Positions 45,840 to 52,299 of a DNA stretch of 64,000 nt are shown here, one piece after another (the first letter of the stretch is position 1; each line of letters opens with the position of its first letter). The position numbers were made by a program, and so were the translations under genes. The notes under the pieces are model-generated. The model saw only the letters and a list, made by a program, of their open reading frames with translations, was not told the origin of the DNA and searched no databases. This DNA comes from Candidatus Magasanikbacteria bacterium RIFCSPHIGHO2_02_FULL_48_18 (GTDB lineage: Bacteria > Patescibacteriota > Patescibacteriia > Magasanikbacterales > UBA922): contig MFQC01000003.1 in the NCBI GenBank assembly GCA_001784285.1, positions 18,151 through 82,150 of the forward strand, written 5' to 3'.

Positions 45840-46616
45840 ATGCAAGAATTTATTGAGACACTTCTGAAAGAAGCCGGAGACATGGCAAAAGCCTATTTTT
45901 ATAAAGGCGTAACGCACAAAACAAAGTCGAATTTGGCGGATTTGCTGACAGAGGCCGATCTCGCGGTAAGTGATTTTTTAGTACGCAAAATTCACGAGGC
46001 TTATCCGGATGATCATATTCACAGCGAAGAAATGGAGAAGGATATCAATCCCGGGAGTTTTCGAGAGTGGGTGATTGATCCTATTGATGGAACGCTCAAT
46101 TTTGCAAAAGGCATTCCCTCTTGGTGCCATCTTTTGGCGGTGGTCGAGGATAAAGAGACGCTGTATGGAGCCGCGTATCACCCCATTGCGCAGGAATTTT
46201 TCTTTGGAGAAAAAAACCATGGCGCAACGATGAATCGGATGCCAATTCGGGTGAGCCAAAAAGATTCATTTGATTTTGCTATTGGCCATGGCGCGCGATT
46301 TCCTACTGAGGACGCTGTGTACGGCACGCATATTGAACAATTTAAAGAATATTTCCGCCGGCTCAATCTCAATACCAATGTGTGGATACAGCATCATGGA
46401 TCTATGATCGGCGCGTGTTATGTGGCAAGCGGAGGATTGGATTTTTTTCTTCAAAACGCCGGGTTGGATCACGATTATCTCGCGCCGGCGCTTCTGTGTG
46501 AAGAAGCAGGCGCAGTGGTTACTGATAGCGAAGGCAACCCGTGGAAAAGGGGGAGACAAGATATTGTTATTGCAAACCCGACGCTTCATAAAAAACTCAT
46601 GGCGTTATTCGCGTAA
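45840..46616 (+). CDS. suhB: Inositol monophosphatase/SuhB-family phosphatase
   Basis: WVIDPIDGTLNF (DPIDGT) metal-binding motif and the overall IMPase fold. Confidence 0.85.
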   Translation: MQEFIETLLKEAGDMAKAYFYKGVTHKTKSNLADLLTEADLAVSDFLVRKIHEAYPDDHIHSEEMEKDINPGSFREWVIDPIDGTLNFAKGIPSWCHLLAVVEDKETLYGAAYHPIAQEFFFGEKNHGATMNRMPIRVSQKDSFDFAIGHGARFPTEDAVYGTHIEQFKEYFRRLNLNTNVWIQHHGSMIGACYVASGGLDFFLQNAGLDHDYLAPALLCEEAGAVVTDSEGNPWKRGRQDIVIANPTLHKKLMALFA

Positions 46617-46637: not shown

Positions 46638-49600
46638 ATGGACCAATATAATCCAAAAATTATTGAAAAAAAATGGCAGGAAGAGTGGGAAAAGAAGGGA
46701 CTTTCTTCAACCCCAGTCGATGCCACCAGGGATAATAAAATGTATGTGCTCCCACAGTTGCCCTATCCGTCCGGATCCGGGTTGCATGCGGGCCATGCCG
46801 AAGTGTACGCCGCCTGCGATATATACGCGCGGTTTTTGCGCATGCAAGGCAAAAAAGTATTACAAGTGTTTGGTCTGGATTCGTTTGGATTGCCGGCAGA
46901 AAATTATGCCATTAAAACCAATGTCCATCCTCGTGAAACCATTAATAAGGCCGGGGAGATGTTTTGCGAGCAGGTTCGTTCACTTGGCATCTCCGTCGAT
47001 TGGGACAGGTTCGTTCGTTCAAGCGATCCAAACTATTATCAATGGACGCAGTGGTTTTTTTTGCTCATGTATAAGCGGGGATTGGCATATCGAAAAAAAC
47101 AATCGGTGAATTGGTGCGATAGTTGTAAAACCGTTCTCGCAAATGAACAGGTCACGCCTCAAGGAATGTGTGAACGGTGCGAAACCGTCGTTATTCAAAA
47201 AGAAATGGAACAATGGTATTTAAAAATTACCGAATATGCTGAGCGTCTTCTTGAAGGCCTCGACCGCATTGATTGGCCGGAAGAAACAAAACAGCGTCAG
47301 CGCAATTGGATTGGAAGAAGCGAAGGCGCGGAAATTCTGTTCCGGATTCCATGCGGGACGTGTGGAAAAAAGCCGGTCGGCCAAACGATCAGTTGCGCTG
47401 ACGACAAGACAGTGGCCGTCTTTACCACACGTCCTGATACCATTTTTGGAACGACCTATTTGGTTTTAGCTCCGGAGCATCCGTTTATTCAAAATCAAAA
47501 ATCAAAAATCAAAAATTGGAATGAGGTTCAAGCATATATTGAAAAAACCGGCAAAAAAACCGAATTGGATCGTCAGATTGAAAAAGAAAAAACAGGAGTA
47601 GAGCTTGAGGGGATACAGGCGATAAATCCGGTAAATGGTGAAGGAATTCCTATTTGGATTGCGGATTATGTTCTTGCGACCTACGGAACCGGCGCTATTA
47701 TGGCTGTTCCCGCCCACGATGAACGAGATTTTGCGTTTGCAAAAAAGTTTGGGCTTAAAATTCGCCAGGTCGTTGATCCTACAGAATATTTTGTAGCAGT
47801 TGATAAAGCGAATGTTGATTTTAAAAAATTAAATGAATACAGAAAAACAATTTTTGTAAATGAAATAGTTTTTGGTGCAGAAGGTCAATTTACGCTTGCT
47901 GTGAGAAACAAAAAAATAATGAATAAAATAGTGCAGAATTGTATCACTAGGGGTGGCGTTAAAGGGATTTATTCTAGTGGGGAAGAATCAGTGCAGGATT
48001 GGTACAAAACTGAAGAAGAGAAGGAATATCGGCCTTTTTTAGATGAAGCAACTGCAATCAACTCCGATTTTCTTAATGATCTCGAAACAAAAGAAGCAAA
48101 AGAAAAAATAATTCAACATTTGGAGGCAGAAAGGATGGGAAAGCGGCATATCCAGTATAAACTTCGAGATTGGTCGGTGTCGCGTCAGCGGTTTTGGGGC
48201 GCCCCGATTCCAATGATCTACAACGAACAAAGAGCAAAAAATAAAAAACACTATTTGTTTCTCCATGGCTATCGAGCGCATGGGAGTGATTGTTTTCGTT
48301 CTTGGCTCAAACACGAATTGGAAAAACAAGGCCATATTGTTTGGGCCGAAGATTTGCCCAACACAGATAAACCGCACATTGATGAACAGGTTGATTTTGT
48401 TTTGCGCACGGCTGATCTTTCGGAAGATACCGTTATTGTCGCGCATAGTCATGGCGGGGGAGTAGCTTTTCGACTGCTTGAAAAAACAAAACAAAAAATC
48501 GCAAAGGTGGTCTTGGTTGATTGTTTTTACAAGCCGGAATTTACCGATAAAAAACGTCCGGATGTGGAAAAGAGCGATACGTGGACGTTTGATTTTGAAA
48601 AAATTCGCGCGGCCGCGGATGAATTTGTCATTGTTCACGATCGTGATGAAAAAACGATTAGCAAAAAACAAGCCGAAGAAATGGCCGAGCTGTTGGGCGC
48701 TCGTCTTATTTTTGAAACACCGCAAGAACGGCACTTTACCGGCGCGAAAGAGCCGCGTATTTTGGAAGAATCACTGGTCACCGGCTTGCATCCTGTTTCA
48801 GAACATGATTTGCCCGTTCTTTTGCCCGATGATGTTGATTTCAAGCCCACTGGCCAATCGCCCTTGACGTATTCGGAAGAATTTCAAAAAGGCGTGGAAG
48901 AACAATATGGAAAAGGCTGGAAACGGGAAGTGGATACGCTTGATACATTTATGTGTTCAAGCTGGTATTATTATCGTTATCTTGATCCGCATAATGATAC
49001 GGCATTTGCGTCCAAAGAGGCGCTCAAACGCTGGATGCCGGTTGATTTTTATCTTGGCGGGGAAGAGCACGTCAATGGCCACCTGCTCTATTCTCGATTT
49101 TTTACCAAAGTGCTCTACGACGCGGGATACATTGATTTTGATGAACCGTTTCTCAAACATCGCCATCAAGGGCTTATTCTTGGCGAGGACAACAGAAAAA
49201 TGAGCAAACGGTGGGGGAATGTGATCAACCCGACCGATGTGGTGAATACGTTCGGCGCGGACACGGTTCGCATGTACGAAATGTTTATGGGCCCGTTGGA
49301 GCAGACAAAACCATGGAGTACGAATGGGGTAAAAGGCGTGCGGAGGTTTTTGGATAAGGTGTGGAGATTGCATGCATCAGTTGTGAGACACGAGCCTTCA
49401 GACAGCGAAAGTGCGGAGTTGGATTCTTTAGTGCATAAGACCGTAAAAAAAGTCACAAAAGATCTTCATGCGATGAGTTTTAATACGGCAATCGCAAAAA
49501 TGATGGAATTGGTCAATGCGATGCAAAAGGAAGAAAAAATTTGTCAACAGCATTTTGAGTTTATTCTTCTTCTGCTGTCTCCTTTTGTGCCGCACATTGC

Positions 49601-49874
49601 GGAAGAGTTGTGGGCAATGCTTGGCCACACGACAAGCATTACGCTTGAATCCTGGCCTGTATTTGACCCGTCGAAAATTGTGGATGAAATGGTCATGTTG
49701 GTGCTCCAGGTGAATGGAAAAATGAGGGGCAGTATTGAAGTGGGTCGAGATATTTCGGATGATGACGCAAAAACAACGGCTCTCTGCCATCCCAATGTAG
49801 TAAAATGGCTCGGTGGGAAAGAACCAAAAAAGATTATTGTTGTGCCGGGTAAATTGGTCAGTATTGTCGTATAA
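46638..49874 (+). CDS. leuS: Leucine--tRNA ligase with an inserted alpha/beta serine-hydrolase (RBBP9/YdeN-like) domain
   Basis: HAGH (HIGH-type) motif, editing-domain return RDWSVSRQRFWGAPIP, KMSKR (KMSKS-like) and the anticodon-binding C-terminus. At 1078 aa it is about 220 aa longer than typical. The extra segment (about 48228-48800) carries a nucleophile elbow VAHSHGG, an acidic VHDRDE and ERHF. Confidence 0.9.
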   Translation: MDQYNPKIIEKKWQEEWEKKGLSSTPVDATRDNKMYVLPQLPYPSGSGLHAGHAEVYAACDIYARFLRMQGKKVLQVFGLDSFGLPAENYAIKTNVHPRETINKAGEMFCEQVRSLGISVDWDRFVRSSDPNYYQWTQWFFLLMYKRGLAYRKKQSVNWCDSCKTVLANEQVTPQGMCERCETVVIQKEMEQWYLKITEYAERLLEGLDRIDWPEETKQRQRNWIGRSEGAEILFRIPCGTCGKKPVGQTISCADDKTVAVFTTRPDTIFGTTYLVLAPEHPFIQNQKSKIKNWNEVQAYIEKTGKKTELDRQIEKEKTGVELEGIQAINPVNGEGIPIWIADYVLATYGTGAIMAVPAHDERDFAFAKKFGLKIRQVVDPTEYFVAVDKANVDFKKLNEYRKTIFVNEIVFGAEGQFTLAVRNKKIMNKIVQNCITRGGVKGIYSSGEESVQDWYKTEEEKEYRPFLDEATAINSDFLNDLETKEAKEKIIQHLEAERMGKRHIQYKLRDWSVSRQRFWGAPIPMIYNEQRAKNKKHYLFLHGYRAHGSDCFRSWLKHELEKQGHIVWAEDLPNTDKPHIDEQVDFVLRTADLSEDTVIVAHSHGGGVAFRLLEKTKQKIAKVVLVDCFYKPEFTDKKRPDVEKSDTWTFDFEKIRAAADEFVIVHDRDEKTISKKQAEEMAELLGARLIFETPQERHFTGAKEPRILEESLVTGLHPVSEHDLPVLLPDDVDFKPTGQSPLTYSEEFQKGVEEQYGKGWKREVDTLDTFMCSSWYYYRYLDPHNDTAFASKEALKRWMPVDFYLGGEEHVNGHLLYSRFFTKVLYDAGYIDFDEPFLKHRHQGLILGEDNRKMSKRWGNVINPTDVVNTFGADTVRMYEMFMGPLEQTKPWSTNGVKGVRRFLDKVWRLHASVVRHEPSDSESAELDSLVHKTVKKVTKDLHAMSFNTAIAKMMELVNAMQKEEKICQQHFEFILLLLSPFVPHIAEELWAMLGHTTSITLESWPVFDPSKIVDEMVMLVLQVNGKMRGSIEVGRDISDDDAKTTALCHPNVVKWLGGKEPKKIIVVPGKLVSIVV

Positions 49875-49898: not shown

Positions 49899-51395
49899 AT
49901 GCAAGGGGGGATATGGCAGTCGCCGTCAAAACGTTTTTTTCTTTTTTGTTCGTGCTTTCTTTTCGGCATTTCCAGCGCGTCCGTATTTGATAAACAAGGT
50001 ATCTCCTCTTTTGATATCTTGTTTTTTTTCGCGTGTCTCTCTTGTCTCATATTTTTCAGGAGACACTCTGTGGGGCGTCGAGCTTGTTTTTGCCTTTTGT
50101 TTTTTTGGTCTGGGGTCTTGCGTTTTTTTTTGGGATTTCCGCACATGTCGCCTTCATTTATTTCCTTTTACAACAATGAGCGTGTTACGCTTACCGGCGT
50201 TATACTCATGAACGCGGATGTGCGGCAAGATGGCGTTCGGTATAGGATCGCGGCAGAGACAATACAAAGGGATGACGGAAAGGACAAATCAGTACACGGA
50301 AATATTTTTGTTAAAACATTTTTATATCCGCGATATTTCTATGGGGACACGGTTCGTATTCAATGTGAACTGAAAGCGCCGGAGCCGATTGAGGATTTTC
50401 GGTACGACCGGTATTTGGCGCGATATCGCGTTTGGAGCATTTGCGTCAACCCATCTCTTGAACGTATAGAGGAAAGACACCGTTTTTCGCTTCTTTCGGT
50501 GATTGAATCGCTCAAGAATGTTGTTGCGGAAACCATACAAAAATTATGGCACGAGCCGTATGCAAGTTTTATGGCCGGCCTTTTGTATGGCTATCGCGGG
50601 GGATTGGGAGATCTGGATGTATTATTTCAAAAAACCGGCGTGTCACACATTGTGGCTGTTTCCGGCTATAACATTAGCATTGTTGCGTCTGTCCTTATGT
50701 CTGCCGCAGGGACTATTGGCATTTCTCGAAAAAAGTCGTTTTGGTTTGTTTTAAACGGTATTGTTTTTTTTGTTCTGTTTACCGGCGCGAGTCCTTCGGT
50801 GGTTCGAGCAGGCATTATGGGCGGTTTTGTGTTGCTTGGAAAATATCTGGGCCGCATGAGTCGTGTTGGGAATGCCATTCTTTTTGCCGCGGTTGTTATG
50901 GGTCTTATGAATCCCTTTATGTTGGTGTGGGATATCGGATTTCAGCTCTCGTTTGTCTCCACGCTTGGCCTCGTCTATCTTTCTCCTGTTTGCACTCGAT
51001 GGTTTCATCGATGCCCTGCGCGGTTTGGCCTTCAGGAGACGTTGGTGTCGACCGCGTCCGCCATACTCGCAACGCTTCCGCTTTCACTCTATTATTTTGG
51101 CCGAGTTTCGCTCGTTGCGCTCATGGTCAATATGCTTATTCTTTGGAGTATTCCTTGGATTATGTTTGGCGGATTTCTCTCTTTCTCTTTCTTTTTTTTG
51201 TTCAAACCGCTCGGTTTCTTTTTTGCGGCCATGTCGTGGCTGGGCATGGCATATATTTTATTCACCGTGCAGTGGTTTGCATCCTTGTCATTTTCATCGG
51301 TTGAGTGGAAAGTTTCTTTTTTGACGATGTTCGGTTTTTATGTTGTGATCGCAGGATTTATTCTGTTGCGGGGACGCGTATATAAGGCAAAATAA
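49899..51395 (+). CDS. comEC: ComEC/Rec2-family DNA internalisation channel protein (competence domain only)
   Basis: N-terminal DUF4131-like TM region and the competence domain (VSHIVAVSGYNISIV, multiple TM helices). Lacks the usual C-terminal MBL domain, which is encoded by the next gene. Confidence 0.8.
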   Translation: MQGGIWQSPSKRFFLFCSCFLFGISSASVFDKQGISSFDILFFFACLSCLIFFRRHSVGRRACFCLLFFWSGVLRFFLGFPHMSPSFISFYNNERVTLTGVILMNADVRQDGVRYRIAAETIQRDDGKDKSVHGNIFVKTFLYPRYFYGDTVRIQCELKAPEPIEDFRYDRYLARYRVWSICVNPSLERIEERHRFSLLSVIESLKNVVAETIQKLWHEPYASFMAGLLYGYRGGLGDLDVLFQKTGVSHIVAVSGYNISIVASVLMSAAGTIGISRKKSFWFVLNGIVFFVLFTGASPSVVRAGIMGGFVLLGKYLGRMSRVGNAILFAAVVMGLMNPFMLVWDIGFQLSFVSTLGLVYLSPVCTRWFHRCPARFGLQETLVSTASAILATLPLSLYYFGRVSLVALMVNMLILWSIPWIMFGGFLSFSFFFLFKPLGFFFAAMSWLGMAYILFTVQWFASLSFSSVEWKVSFLTMFGFYVVIAGFILLRGRVYKAK

Positions 51396-51402
51396 AAAAA
51401 TT

Positions 51403-52299
51403 ATGAAAAAATTTTTCTTTTTTTCTTTAGTCATCATTTTGTTGTCCGCCGGAGTGACTGGATATTGGCATATTTCACACAGGACAGAACAAAAGCATAG
51501 CACCACTATCACTTTTTTGGATATTGGCCAGGGAGATGCAACATTTATCGAATTTTCGGACGGCCAGCAGATGTTGGTGGATTGCGCGATTGACGCGCGT
51601 ATTTTGGAAGCGCTCGGGCGTGTGATGCCTTTTTATGATTTTACGCTCGATTATCTTGTTATTACGCATCCGGATCTTGATCACTATGGAGGATGCGTTG
51701 ATGTGCTTAAAAAATTACACGTGAGGCATATTGTGTATTCCGGTCTTCGAGAAGAAGATTCTGGTTATTGGAATGAATTCTGGTTCGCAATCGAGAAGGA
51801 GAAAGCCATGTATCACCAAATGGAAGAACAACAAGAATGGATGGTTGGAGACGCCACGCTTCATTTTTTATATCCGGACCATTCCATTCCGGATAACCCG
51901 CATATTCCAGGCCATGCCGGCGCTATGGATAAAAATAATACGTCGATTGTTTTTGTGGTTGATGCGTATGGCATTCGGACCATGTTGACGGGAGATATGG
52001 AAGAACCTTTGGAAAAATACCTTATTGAAACGGCGTCCGCCTATCTTGCCGCTCATATTCTGAAAGCAGGGCACCATGGCAGTGGCTCCTCATCAAGCCA
52101 ATCATTTTTGAATTTGGTTCAGCCGGAAGAAACGGTCATTTCCGCGGGAGAGAATAATCCCTTTCATCATCCCAATGAAAGAGTTTTGCGGCGGCTCAAA
52201 CGCATGGACGCAAGAATATGGCGGACCGATCGCCAAGGTGATATACTACTCACCATAGAGAAAGGAGGAATGTATGTTCTCTCAGCAAAAAAGAGGTAG
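51403..52299 (+). CDS. MBL-fold metallo-hydrolase, ComEC C-terminal-domain-like (separate gene)
   Basis: ITFLDIGQGDATFIEF and HPDLDHYGG (HxHxDH) motifs. Signal/TM N-terminus. Starts 8 nt after the comEC stop. Confidence 0.8.
   Translation: MKKFFFFSLVIILLSAGVTGYWHISHRTEQKHSTTITFLDIGQGDATFIEFSDGQQMLVDCAIDARILEALGRVMPFYDFTLDYLVITHPDLDHYGGCVDVLKKLHVRHIVYSGLREEDSGYWNEFWFAIEKEKAMYHQMEEQQEWMVGDATLHFLYPDHSIPDNPHIPGHAGAMDKNNTSIVFVVDAYGIRTMLTGDMEEPLEKYLIETASAYLAAHILKAGHHGSGSSSSQSFLNLVQPEETVISAGENNPFHHPNERVLRRLKRMDARIWRTDRQGDILLTIEKGGMYVLSAKKR

What the first reader, a model, noticed from the sequence alone, without database searches (positions are those of the whole stretch)
48228..48800. leuS carries an inserted RBBP9/YdeN-like alpha/beta serine-hydrolase domain with an apparent Ser-Asp-His triad
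The LeuS ORF is 1078 aa, against about 800-880 typical. The excess is one contiguous segment between the conserved RDWSVSRQRFWGAPIPM and LPVLLPDDVDF blocks. That segment reads as a complete small alpha/beta hydrolase of the Ser_hydrolase (RBBP9/YdeN) type. It has beta1 LFLHGYRAHGSD, a nucleophile elbow VAHSHGG, an acidic VHDRDE and ERHF for the His. A presumably active esterase/thioesterase fold embedded in a class I aaRS catalytic core is not a described LeuS architecture. It could be an extra trans-editing or deacylating module, or moonlighting chemistry. There are no intein-like splice junctions.
Basis: partly seen in the sequence, partly recalled or inferred. Interest (0 to 1): 0.75.

Follow-up and report, generated by a model that had tools for sequence, protein, structure and literature searches.

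The report
Serine hydrolase domain inside leucyl-tRNA synthetase
The leucyl-tRNA synthetase of this ultra-small (Patescibacteria/CPR) bacterium carries a complete, apparently active YdeN/RBBP9-type serine hydrolase folded into its catalytic core; I found no paper describing this, yet the same hydrolase is fused to LeuRS or encoded beside leuS in many tiny bacteria and some archaea, so it may be a new quality-control module for protein synthesis.

Summary
The leuS ORF (46638-49874, 1078 aa) holds a clean 184-aa insertion (aa 532-715) at a hairpin tip between WGAPIPM and LPVLLPDD. The insert passes Pfam PF06821 (44 bits, cut-off 22), aligns end to end with B. subtilis YdeN, models at pLDDT ~96 and superposes on YdeN and RBBP9 (TM 0.75-0.83). 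Ser604 and His699 are invariant in 184-185 of 186 relatives. It is not a chimera or an intein. Dozens of independent Patescibacteria LeuRS carry it, at two different sites. Five of seven informative free-standing relatives are encoded beside a bacterial- or archaeal-type leuS, once in an operon with a YbaK-like deacylase. Most likely it is an aminoacyl-ester hydrolase working with LeuRS. That function is inferred, not shown. CP1 editing motifs are intact, carriage is patchy, and the same domain also sits inside SecA, UvrA/B, EngA, TsaD, AlaRS and ValRS. One correction: the hydrolase explains only about two thirds of the extra length. No paper describing the architecture was found.

The parts
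46638..49874 (+). leuS ORF, 1078 aa, bacterial-type leucyl-tRNA synthetase hosting the insert
   Evidence: ORF list. NCBIfam TIGR00396 leuS_bact 908 bits against cut-off 548. Foldseek of the full model matches bacterial LeuRS structures, E about 1e-73.
46785..46796 (+). HIGH signature (HAGH, aa 50-53) of the class I active site
   Evidence: H50, G52 and H53 invariant in 114 homologs
47301..47792 (+). CP1 editing domain (aa 222-385) with intact editing motifs TTRPDT (263-268) and AHDERD (359-364)
   Evidence: Pfam PF13603, 185 bits. T263-T268 are at least 90% conserved and D361, R363 and D364 are invariant, in carriers and non-carriers alike.
47349..47408 (+). Site 1 loop (aa 238-257, PCGTCGKKPVGQTISCADDK). 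In other lineages this CP1 hairpin hosts the same hydrolase domain.
   Evidence: Gap against Tth LeuRS; site-1 carriers mapped; low pLDDT
47778..48032 (+). Site 2 insert (aa 381-465), a segment of about 80 aa of unknown type at the position where relatives carry NUDIX, HAD or methyltransferase domains
   Evidence: Unaligned to Tth LeuRS. No Pfam hit, and shared only with P0004 and P0040. pLDDT 49-79.
48180..48191 (+). SRQR motif (R516, R518), equivalent to E. coli R416/R418, which point at the tRNA CCA tail; 14 residues upstream of the insertion
   Evidence: Invariant. The role of E. coli R416/R418 is from PMC3664829. The residue equivalence is my inference from the SRQR motif.
48231..48782 (+). 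Inserted YdeN/RBBP9-type serine hydrolase domain (aa 532-715), including a basic N-linker (RAKNKK) and a C-linker (EPRILEESLVT)
   Evidence: Pfam PF06821, 44.4 bits. YdeN E=4.9e-11. AF2 pLDDT 95-98 in context and 95.9 alone. Foldseek 1UXO TM 0.77/0.82 and RBBP9 TM 0.75-0.83. Junction defined.
48264..48269 (+). H543-G544, the oxyanion-hole HG motif after beta-strand 1
   Evidence: H in 179/186 and G in 175/186 relatives
48441..48455 (+). Nucleophile elbow A-H-S604-H-G between strand 598-603 and helix 606-616
   Evidence: Ser in 184/186, preceding His in 175/186, Gly606 in 176/186. Secondary structure. Aligned to the YdeN HSLG and RBBP9 HSSG motifs.
48639..48650 (+). Acid loop D668-R-D670-E671 after strand 660-668. 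Glu671 occupies the canonical triad-acid column.
   Evidence: Column 671 is Asp in 113/186 and Glu in 14; column 668 is Asp in 93 and Ser in 64. It is aligned to the RBBP9 ...STDD... segment. Which residue pairs with His699 is unresolved.
48732..48734 (+). Catalytic His699 (ERHF), in the loop after strand 689-693
   Evidence: His in 185/186 relatives; aligned to the YdeN GGHF motif
49197..49211 (+). KMSKS signature (KMSKR, aa 854-858)
   Evidence: K854, M855, S856, K857 and R858 invariant

Best explanation
The segment is a real, independently folded and very probably catalytically active serine hydrolase of the YdeN/RBBP9 family (PF06821). It is inserted in frame at the tip of a surface beta-hairpin of the LeuRS catalytic core, the loop that in T. 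thermophilus LeuRS carries a Cys-x2-Cys knuckle, 14 residues after the SRQR arginines that guide the tRNA CCA end. The host is a complete LeuRS with intact HIGH, KMSKS and CP1 editing motifs. The fusion is one form of a recurrent hydrolase-LeuRS partnership in genome-reduced Patescibacteria and some archaea. The same hydrolase clade is found at this site, at a second site in the CP1 hairpin, or as a separate gene abutting a plain leuS. My proposed mechanism, which is inferred and not shown, is this: Ser604/His699 plus an acid at 668-671 hydrolyse an aminoacyl ester that has a free alpha-amine. The likely substrate is an aminoacyl-tRNA species, or another aminoacyl product of LeuRS, that the CP1 site does not clear. 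The domain would then act as a cis-attached deacylase, in the way the INS/YbaK family acts with ProRS. Confidence by step: domain identity and catalytic competence about 0.95; a specific functional link to LeuRS about 0.75; aminoacyl-ester or aa-tRNA hydrolysis about 0.4. The overall confidence given is that of the weakest (functional) step.
For: Identity: Pfam above cut-off; YdeN and RBBP9 sequence matches; AF2 pLDDT 95.9 and pTM 0.92; Foldseek TM 0.75-0.83 to 1UXO, 2QS9 and 7OEX. Selection for catalysis: Ser604 in 184/186, His699 in 185/186, HG and the HSxG elbow conserved in all contexts. Recurrence: 61 of 114 close LeuRS homologs carry it at site 3. In the 186-domain alignment, 66 copies are at site 3 and 20 at site 1, plus 16 that appear N-terminally truncated; the one checked was a mis-called start. 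Taxa include Magasanikbacteria, Taylorbacteria and Saccharimonadales. LeuRS-linked copies cluster apart from ordinary standalone YdeN-like proteins. Rosetta-stone evidence: standalone clade members sit 6 nt upstream (P0129), 36 nt upstream (P0135) and 2 nt downstream (P0143) of plain bacterial-type leuS. P0152 abuts an archaeal-type leuS. In L007 two hydrolase genes, a PF04073 tRNA_edit (YbaK-like) gene, Ham1 and an archaeal-type leuS overlap in one string. That makes 5 of 7 informative cases. Chemistry: RBBP9 uses Ser75 to cleave aminoacyl groups and requires a free alpha-amine (PMC8866121). Position: R516/R518, equivalent to E. coli R416/R418 which point at the CCA tail in both conformations (PMC3664829), lie 14 residues before the insert. 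ValRS carriers have the domain in the homologous inter-motif loop. The pattern of one domain family that is free-standing, or fused at different points of its synthetase, is the pattern known for INS/YbaK/ProX and AlaX editing domains (established knowledge).
Against: No activity or substrate is shown. CP1 editing residues are intact in carriers and non-carriers alike, so there is no obvious editing gap to fill. Carriage is patchy among close relatives: about 26 gain/loss steps on the core tree of 114 sequences against 37.9 +/- 2.7 for shuffled labels, and hydrolase and core distances are only weakly correlated (Spearman 0.13). The domain is therefore dispensable for LeuRS function. The same domain clade is inserted into proteins that do not handle tRNA, namely SecA, UvrA, UvrB and EngA, and it is fused to Ham1 and the dipeptidase family S51. 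Two standalone members are not next to leuS. I could not obtain model coordinates, so neither the triad geometry nor the distance from Ser604 to the tRNA 3' end was measured. The RBBP9 residue that anchors the alpha-amine (Glu108) has no clearly aligned equivalent.
Confidence: 0.4

Rival explanations
1. Amino-acid scavenging. The domain is an RBBP9-like aminopeptidase that releases N-terminal hydrophobic residues (Leu, Val, Ala) from imported peptides. It is co-localised or co-expressed with the matching synthetases in organisms that cannot make amino acids.
For: RBBP9 is a proven aminopeptidase that needs a free alpha-amine. Relatives are fused to Peptidase_S51 dipeptidases. The aaRS hosts are LeuRS, ValRS and AlaRS, all for aliphatic residues. 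Patchy, dispensable carriage suits a metabolic accessory.
Against: No precedent is known for channelling a free amino acid from a peptidase to a synthetase. It does not explain the operon with a YbaK-like deacylase or the insertion 14 residues from the CCA-guiding arginines. The hosts SecA, UvrA/B and EngA are unexplained as well.
Confidence: 0.2
2. Host-independent hitch-hiker. A small housekeeping or house-cleaning esterase, like the NUDIX, HAD, Ham1 and methyltransferase modules seen in the same LeuRS loops, has been captured repeatedly in permissive surface loops of large essential proteins in streamlined genomes. Its chemistry has nothing to do with aminoacylation.
For: The same domain clade sits inside SecA, EngA, TsaD, UvrA, UvrB, an Fmt-like protein, AlaRS and ValRS. 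The LeuRS of this group has three insertion hot-spots that accept NUDIX, HAD, methyltransferase and even an IS200 Y1 transposase domain. Gain and loss are frequent.
Against: It does not predict that free-standing relatives lie specifically beside leuS in 5 of 7 informative cases, across both bacterial- and archaeal-type LeuRS. It also does not predict that LeuRS dominates the hosts, although that ranking is biased by using a LeuRS-derived query.
Confidence: 0.2
3. Target-embedded antibiotic resistance. The hydrolase, and the NUDIX, HAD or methyltransferase modules in sister proteins, destroy or modify leucyl-adenylate-mimicking inhibitors of LeuRS at the enzyme itself.
For: All four inserted enzyme classes can in principle act on aminoacyl-nucleotide analogues (inference). 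LeuRS is the target of the natural Trojan-horse toxin TM84 from agrocin 84 (PMC5059758).
Against: This is purely speculative. No inhibitor is known in these habitats, and it does not explain the non-aaRS hosts.
Confidence: 0.05
4. Non-catalytic role. The fold serves as a ligand sensor, a structural spacer or an interaction platform rather than as an enzyme.
For: Alpha/beta-hydrolase receptors exist (D14 and KAI2 appear among the weaker fold matches). The predicted domain is rigidly docked (pTM 0.84).
Against: Near-absolute conservation of the Ser, the His, the HG motif and the elbow Gly in 186 sequences is what purifying selection on catalysis would produce.
Confidence: 0.05
5. Artefact or selfish element: an assembly chimera, an intein or an in-frame mobile DNA insertion.
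For: The host range (essential, conserved proteins) resembles that of inteins. One relative carries an in-frame IS200 Y1 transposase domain.
Against: There are clean, conserved in-frame junctions in dozens of independent assemblies. No Hint or intein domain is found. There are no flanking repeats beyond chance-level short matches. GC content is not anomalous: 0.42-0.47 in the insert against 0.39-0.49 in the flanks. Copies in different hosts are only 30-37% identical, so none is recent.
Confidence: 0.02

Closest known systems
YdeN (B. subtilis, PDB 1UXO) / RBBP9 (human, 2QS9, 7OEX): Pfam PF06821 Ser_hydrolase family
   Same: Same small alpha/beta-hydrolase fold of about 180 aa (TM 0.75-0.83, rmsd 2.1-3.4 A), the same HG oxyanion motif, HSxG elbow and C-terminal His, and an HMM score above the family cut-off.
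   Different: The known members are free-standing proteins, whereas this one is an internal domain of an aminoacyl-tRNA synthetase. Sequence identity is only 20-24%. The LeuRS-linked copies form their own clade with extra invariant residues (Q584, E705-P706, D652). The canonical acid is Glu rather than Asp. The RBBP9 alpha-amine anchor Glu108 is not clearly conserved.
ProRS INS domain / YbaK / ProX (PF04073 tRNA_edit) and AlaX: aaRS editing domains that occur inserted, terminally fused or free-standing
   Same: The same evolutionary pattern: one hydrolytic domain family is found inside the synthetase at different points, or as a separate gene beside it. One related operon even pairs the hydrolase with a PF04073 protein and leuS.
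   Different: The fold and the chemistry are unrelated: here an alpha/beta serine hydrolase that would act through an acyl-enzyme intermediate, there the YbaK or AlaX folds without a serine nucleophile. No deacylation activity has been shown for this domain.
LeuRS CP1 editing domain (PF13603)
   Same: Both are hydrolytic modules inserted into the Rossmann fold of the same enzyme near the path of the tRNA 3' end.
   Different: CP1 is universal in bacterial LeuRS and is intact here. The hydrolase is an additional, lineage-restricted and dispensable module with a different fold.
IleRS with an N-acetyltransferase domain (NCBIfam NF040702 ileS_w_GNAT)
   Same: It is another curated case of a class Ia synthetase carrying an extra enzyme domain. 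I saw it only as a library entry.
   Different: It involves a different synthetase and a different added enzyme class. I did not examine it further.
Inteins
   Same: In-frame insertions in conserved essential proteins (aaRS, SecA, UvrA/B), with patchy distribution.
   Different: No Hint domain, no splice-junction residues and no homing endonuclease are present. The insert keeps an esterase-type catalytic apparatus and is predicted to stay in the mature protein.

Membership tests
Pfam PF06821 Ser_hydrolase (RBBP9/YdeN) | HMM score above the curated gathering threshold | tested here: met
   44.4 bits for the excised insert and 40.0 bits in the full protein, against a cut-off of 22
Pfam PF06821 Ser_hydrolase (RBBP9/YdeN) | Compact alpha/beta-hydrolase fold of about 180 aa, superposable on solved members | tested here: met
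   AF2 pLDDT 95.9 and pTM 0.92. Foldseek: 1UXO TM 0.77/0.82 at rmsd 2.3 A; RBBP9 TM 0.75-0.83.
Pfam PF06821 Ser_hydrolase (RBBP9/YdeN) | Nucleophilic Ser in a G/A-H-S-x-G elbow and a catalytic His near the C-terminus | tested here: met
   AHS604HG and H699 are aligned to the YdeN and RBBP9 motifs. Ser is present in 184/186 and His in 185/186 relatives.
Pfam PF06821 Ser_hydrolase (RBBP9/YdeN) | Triad acid after strand beta7, correctly placed to hydrogen-bond the His | tested here: inconclusive
   D668, D670 and E671 lie in the right loop, and E671 sits in the canonical column (Asp in 113/186). The geometry could not be measured because no coordinates are available.
Pfam PF06821 Ser_hydrolase (RBBP9/YdeN) | Hydrolytic activity | not testable with these tools
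   Needs an enzyme assay
Bacterial-type leucyl-tRNA synthetase (TIGR00396) | Equivalog HMM above cut-off; HIGH and KMSKS signatures; CP1 editing domain; anticodon-binding and C-terminal domains | tested here: met
   908 bits against 548. HAGH 50-53 and KMSKR 854-858. PF13603 at 185 bits and PF08264 at 76 bits. Full-length superposition on LeuRS structures.
aaRS editing / aminoacyl-tRNA deacylase module (functional class) | Hydrolyses mis-acylated tRNA or aminoacyl-adenylate | not testable with these tools
   Only indirect support: leuS adjacency, an operon with a YbaK-like gene and RBBP9 chemistry
aaRS editing / aminoacyl-tRNA deacylase module (functional class) | Active site within reach of the tRNA 3' end on the synthetase | not tested
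Only sequence proximity is known: 14 residues from R516/R518, the equivalents of E. coli R416/R418.
Intein | Hint domain with Cys/Ser/Thr at the N-junction and His-Asn plus Cys/Ser/Thr at the C-junction | tested here: not met
   No Hint or intein Pfam hit. The junctions read ...YNEQ|RAKNKK... and ...ESLVT|GLHPV....
Assembly chimera / mis-join | Architecture unique to this assembly, with a frame or composition break at the junctions | tested here: not met
   61 of 114 close homologs from independent assemblies share the same in-frame junction. A 100%-identical fragment, P0001, is found elsewhere. GC content is unremarkable. Read mapping itself was not possible.

The most novel reading that the evidence does not exclude
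An alpha/beta serine hydrolase of the YdeN/RBBP9 family is a previously unrecognised class of aminoacyl-tRNA (or aminoacyl-adenylate) proofreading factor dedicated mainly to LeuRS. It acts in cis when inserted at either of two sites in the enzyme, and in trans when encoded beside leuS. It is used by genome-reduced Patescibacteria and DPANN-like archaea with both bacterial- and archaeal-type LeuRS. It would be the first editing module to work through a covalent acyl-serine intermediate.
Probability: 0.3. Interest if true: 0.85.

Novelty: new variant of a known kind. Interest (0 to 1): 0.7.

Why it matters
Aminoacyl-tRNA synthetases set the accuracy of the genetic code, and their editing domains come from a short list of folds. 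If this domain does edit, a conserved and apparently active serine-esterase fold wired into LeuRS would add a new fold and a new covalent chemistry to that list. The case is strengthened because the same fold recurs at a second site in the enzyme and as a leuS-adjacent gene, with both bacterial- and archaeal-type LeuRS. It would also show how ultra-small symbionts with minimal genomes manage translational quality control. It would give the poorly understood YdeN/RBBP9 family its first candidate physiological context in prokaryotes. Even if the function is unrelated to editing, the data reveal something general and undescribed. The LeuRS of Patescibacteria has three insertion hot-spots that accept whole enzymes (serine hydrolase, NUDIX, HAD, methyltransferase). 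The same hydrolase is also threaded into SecA, UvrA/B, EngA, TsaD, AlaRS and ValRS. That is a mode of protein-architecture evolution worth explaining.

Tried and rejected
- **Word-indexed search with the insert alone:** it found nothing. The exhaustive HMMER search was needed instead.
- **Profile search with a diverse domain alignment (A3):** it listed only free-standing PF06821 proteins. Its candidate set evidently missed the embedded copies, so it gave no host census.
- **Genome-collection scan with domain alignments:** A single-protein scan gave only two loci.
- **NUDIX remnant at site 2:** I tested whether the aa 381-465 segment is a degraded NUDIX. There is no Pfam hit and no similarity to NUDIX-bearing relatives, so this is rejected at the sequence level.
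- **Intein:** rejected.
- **Assembly chimera:** rejected.
- **Recent mobile element:** I looked for flanking direct or inverted repeats and a composition shift. Only short matches at chance level turned up, and GC content is normal.
- **Split leuS genes:** I asked whether LeuRS entries that begin with the hydrolase are split genes. The one I examined (P0130) is a mis-called start inside a continuous 1175-aa ORF.
- **Negative controls for gene neighbourhood:** two ordinary YdeN-like proteins sat on contigs under 2 kb and were uninformative.
- **Triad geometry and distance to the tRNA 3' end:** not possible, because model coordinates are not exposed.
- **Literature:** six searches for the architecture found nothing relevant.
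Full report
**1. The observation**

The window encodes a 1078-aa ORF at 46638-49874 on the + strand. It is a bacterial-type leucyl-tRNA synthetase: NCBIfam TIGR00396 scores 908 bits against a cut-off of 548. Pfam finds tRNA-synt_1, the LeuRS editing domain PF13603 and Anticodon_1.

A phmmer alignment to T. thermophilus LeuRS breaks into four blocks:

| Query | Tth LeuRS |
|---|---|
| 1-380 | 1-363 |
| 465-530 | 375-440 |
| 715-849 | 442-579 |
| 854-1078 | 637-876 |

Residues 531-714 are therefore a clean insertion between Tth residues 440 and 442. A second unaligned stretch lies at 381-464, and the Tth leucine-specific domain (580-636) has no counterpart.

An alignment of 114 close homologs fixes the junction. 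Plain relatives read ...WGAPIPMLYDEK|GELHPVPEEDLPV.... Carriers have about 183 residues at exactly that hairpin tip, with a conserved basic N-linker (NEExKxKK) and a C-linker (EPxxLEESxVTGL).

Relative to the 807-aa plain relative P0055, the extra residues are +183 (hydrolase), +78 (aa 381-465) and a small loop at aa 238-257.

**2. Identity of the insert**

- The excised segment scores 44.4 bits on PF06821 Ser_hydrolase (cut-off 22) and also passes Abhydrolase_1 and Abhydrolase_6.
- Against PDB sequences the best match is B. subtilis YdeN (1UXO, E=4.9e-11, 164 aligned residues), followed by human RBBP9 (E=3.4e-5).
- In the full-length AlphaFold2 model (pLDDT 88.5, pTM 0.84) the insert is the best-defined part of the protein, at pLDDT 95-98. 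Strand 598-603, Ser604 and helix 606-616 form a textbook nucleophile elbow, the acid loop follows strand 660-668, and His699 follows strand 689-693.
- Modelled alone it gives pLDDT 95.9 and pTM 0.92.
- Foldseek places it on YdeN (TM 0.77/0.82, rmsd 2.3 A) and on RBBP9 (TM 0.75-0.83), well ahead of all other alpha/beta hydrolases.
- The full-length model otherwise matches only ordinary bacterial LeuRS structures, none of which carries such a domain.

**3. Catalytic residues**

I aligned 186 near-complete relatives of the domain taken from all contexts.

| Residue | Conservation |
|---|---|
| Ser604 | 184/186 |
| His699 | 185/186 |
| His603 | 175/186 |
| Gly606 | 176/186 |
| His543 / Gly544 (oxyanion HG) | 179 / 175 |

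The acid is less clear. The column that aligns with the second Asp of the RBBP9 ...STDD... segment is Asp in 113 sequences and Glu in 14, including Glu671 here. That second Asp is Asp138, the triad acid of RBBP9; this assignment is from my own knowledge and was not verified here. D668 and D670 flank it, and D652 and D628 are also well conserved. I could not measure geometry because coordinates are not exposed.

This degree of conservation indicates selection for catalysis. It is not what one expects of a decaying passenger.

**4. Artefacts excluded**

- GC content is 0.42-0.47 across the insert and 0.39-0.49 in the flanks.
- No Hint or intein domain is detected, and the junction residues are not splice-type.
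- Repeats around the insert are short and at chance level.
- A fragment with 100% identity occurs in another assembly, and dozens of independent assemblies share the architecture.

**5. Distribution**

A full-length search returned LeuRS from Magasanikbacteria and other Patescibacteria at 50-70% identity. These are either plain (about 800-830 aa) or carry extra Pfam domains: PF06821, NUDIX, both, HAD, or methyltransferases. JGI auto-annotates some of them as 'leucyl-tRNA synthetase/predicted alpha/beta hydrolase family esterase'.

The exhaustive HMMER search with the insert alone gave 781 hits at E<=1e-3 and 163 at E<=1e-10. Mapping the hits onto the plain LeuRS P0055 shows three insertion hot-spots.

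| Site | P0055 residues | Location | What it carries |
|---|---|---|---|
| 1 | ~237-251 | First hairpin of CP1 | The same hydrolase, in a different set of lineages that includes Saccharimonadales |
| 2 | ~373-381 | End of CP1 | NUDIX, HAD, methyltransferase, or short unknown pieces |
| 3 | ~446-448 | Hairpin after WG·PIPM | The hydrolase, as in this window |

Taxa include Magasanikbacteria, Taylorbacteria and Saccharimonadales. A MAG labelled Woesearchaeota carries a bacterial-type LeuRS with a site-1 hydrolase.

A neighbour-joining tree of the domains separates a LeuRS-linked clade of 122 leaves, with site-3 and site-1 sub-clades, from a clade of 64 that is mostly ordinary free-standing YdeN-like proteins.

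**6. Gene neighbourhood of free-standing relatives**

This is the strongest evidence for a functional link. For nine free-standing members of the LeuRS-linked clade I looked up their contigs.

| Protein | Context |
|---|---|
| P0129 | 6 nt upstream of a plain 809-aa bacterial-type leuS |
| P0135 | 36 nt upstream of an 801-aa leuS |
| P0143 | 2 nt downstream of an 806-aa leuS, in a locus that shares the Inositol_P-leuS arrangement of this window |
| P0152 | Abuts an archaeal-type leuS |
| P0134 | First gene of an overlapping string (see below) |
| P0133 | Not next to leuS |
| P0177 | Next to RmuC, not leuS |
| P0140 | Uninformative (neighbour unknown, no DNA available) |
| P0159 | Uninformative (short contig) |

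The P0134 string reads hydrolase, hydrolase, PF04073 tRNA_edit (YbaK-like), Ham1, archaeal-type leuS (TIGR00395, 784 bits against a cut-off of 648).

So 5 of 7 informative cases are adjacent to LeuRS, across both LeuRS types. Two negative controls from the other clade were on contigs too short to be informative, so a formal enrichment test is still needed.

**7. Complications**

- The same domain clade is also inserted in frame into SecA, EngA/Der, TsaD, an Fmt-like formyltransferase, UvrA, UvrB, AlaRS and ValRS. It is also fused to Ham1 and to Peptidase_S51.
- In two ValRS proteins it lies between WCISRQxWxGHRIP and DTLDTWFSS, the loop homologous to LeuRS site 3.
- On a tree built from LeuRS core columns only, site-3 carriage (61 of 114) needs about 26 parsimony steps, against 37.9 +/- 2.7 for shuffled labels. 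Core and hydrolase distances correlate weakly, with Spearman 0.13. The tree is shallow and probably poorly resolved, but carriage is clearly patchy, so the module is dispensable for aminoacylation.
- CP1 editing residues (TTRPDT 263-268; D361, R363, D364) are conserved in carriers and non-carriers alike. The hydrolase does not replace CP1.

**8. Mechanism: what is shown and what is inferred**

Shown:
- The fold, the catalytic residues and the insertion point.
- Recurrence in many independent LeuRS.
- Adjacency of free-standing relatives to leuS.

Taken from the literature:
- RBBP9, the only biochemically defined member of PF06821, uses Ser75 to cleave aminoacyl groups and strictly requires a free alpha-amine (PMC8866121).
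- By motif alignment (my inference) these correspond to the invariant R516 and R518, 14 residues before the insert.

Inferred:
- The domain hydrolyses an aminoacyl ester produced or handled by LeuRS, and acts as an extra cis deacylase.
- It acts as a trans deacylase when it is encoded beside leuS.
- This parallels the INS/YbaK/ProX and AlaX families, which likewise occur inserted, fused or free-standing.

I put about 0.4 on this function. I put about 0.2 each on an aminopeptidase/scavenging role and on a host-independent hitch-hiker, and small weights on inhibitor detoxification, a non-catalytic role and artefact.

**9. Novelty**

Six literature searches found no description of a LeuRS with an alpha/beta-hydrolase, NUDIX, HAD or methyltransferase insertion, nor of a PF06821-LeuRS association. 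The sequences are nevertheless in public databases with automatic names.

I classify the finding as a new variant of a known kind: a synthetase with an accessory hydrolytic module. If the editing function is confirmed, it would be a new class of proofreading domain.

Noticed in passing
window 47778-48032 (aa 381-465 of LeuS): A second insertion of about 80 aa at the end of CP1, at the same hot-spot where relatives carry NUDIX, HAD or methyltransferase domains. It has no Pfam hit, is shared only with P0004 and P0040, and is modelled with low confidence (pLDDT 49-79).
   Followed up: partly
window 47349-47408 (aa 238-257 of LeuS): A small extra loop, PCGTCGKKPVGQTISCADDK (CxxC plus a third Cys), in the first CP1 hairpin. 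This is exactly the site where other lineages carry the hydrolase. It is absent from T. thermophilus LeuRS.
   Followed up: no
window 49197-49211 and surrounding (aa ~849-854): This LeuRS lacks the leucine-specific domain that precedes KMSKS in the T. thermophilus and E. coli enzymes. AgnB2, M. mobile and B. subtilis LeuRS lack it too (PMC5059758).
   Followed up: no
P0125 (LeuS, 998 aa), residues 269-374: A related LeuRS carries an in-frame IS200-like Y1 transposase domain (PF01797, 52.8 bits) at site 1, in addition to a site-3 hydrolase. This hints that mobile DNA may seed these insertion hot-spots.
   Followed up: no
P0132, P0162, P0169, P0184, P0188, P0213, P0221, P0183, P0189: The same hydrolase clade is threaded in frame into SecA, EngA/Der, TsaD, UvrA, AlaRS, an Fmt-like protein, UvrB and ValRS. 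The spread across essential proteins is intein-like, but the enzyme domain is conserved.
   Followed up: partly
L007 5001-9882 (NCBI GCA_020049755.1, JAHZTO010004402.1): An overlapping gene string of two Ser_hydrolases, a YbaK-like tRNA_edit protein, Ham1 and an archaeal-type LeuRS. It looks like a dedicated LeuRS accessory operon in an archaeon-like genome.
   Followed up: partly
L010 699-3899 (JACOVN010000016.1, labelled Candidatus Woesearchaeota): A MAG labelled archaeal encodes a bacterial-type LeuRS (TIGR00396, 979 bits) with a site-1 hydrolase. This is either horizontal transfer into a DPANN archaeon or a binning error.
   Followed up: no
L019 3167-6694 (GCA_030647355.1): The database protein P0130 (897 aa, starting at the hydrolase) is a mis-called start. 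The ORF is continuous for 1175 aa (from the first TTG; the likely ATG start gives ~1157 aa) and encodes a LeuRS with a site-1 hydrolase and NUDIX. This LeuRS keeps the CxxC...CxxC knuckle at site 3. A free-standing NUDIX gene lies immediately upstream of it. Other 'N-terminally truncated' entries may be the same artefact.
   Followed up: yes
window 45840-46616 and L012 243-1007: An inositol-monophosphatase-like gene sits directly upstream of leuS both here and in a relative. In that relative the hydrolase is a separate gene just downstream of a plain leuS, so the locus is syntenic in fused and unfused states.
   Followed up: partly
window 49899-52299: Downstream of leuS lie a ComEC-like membrane protein ORF (498 aa) and a metallo-beta-lactamase-fold ORF (298 aa) with strong negative AT skew. 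They look like a split ComEC competence channel.
   Followed up: no
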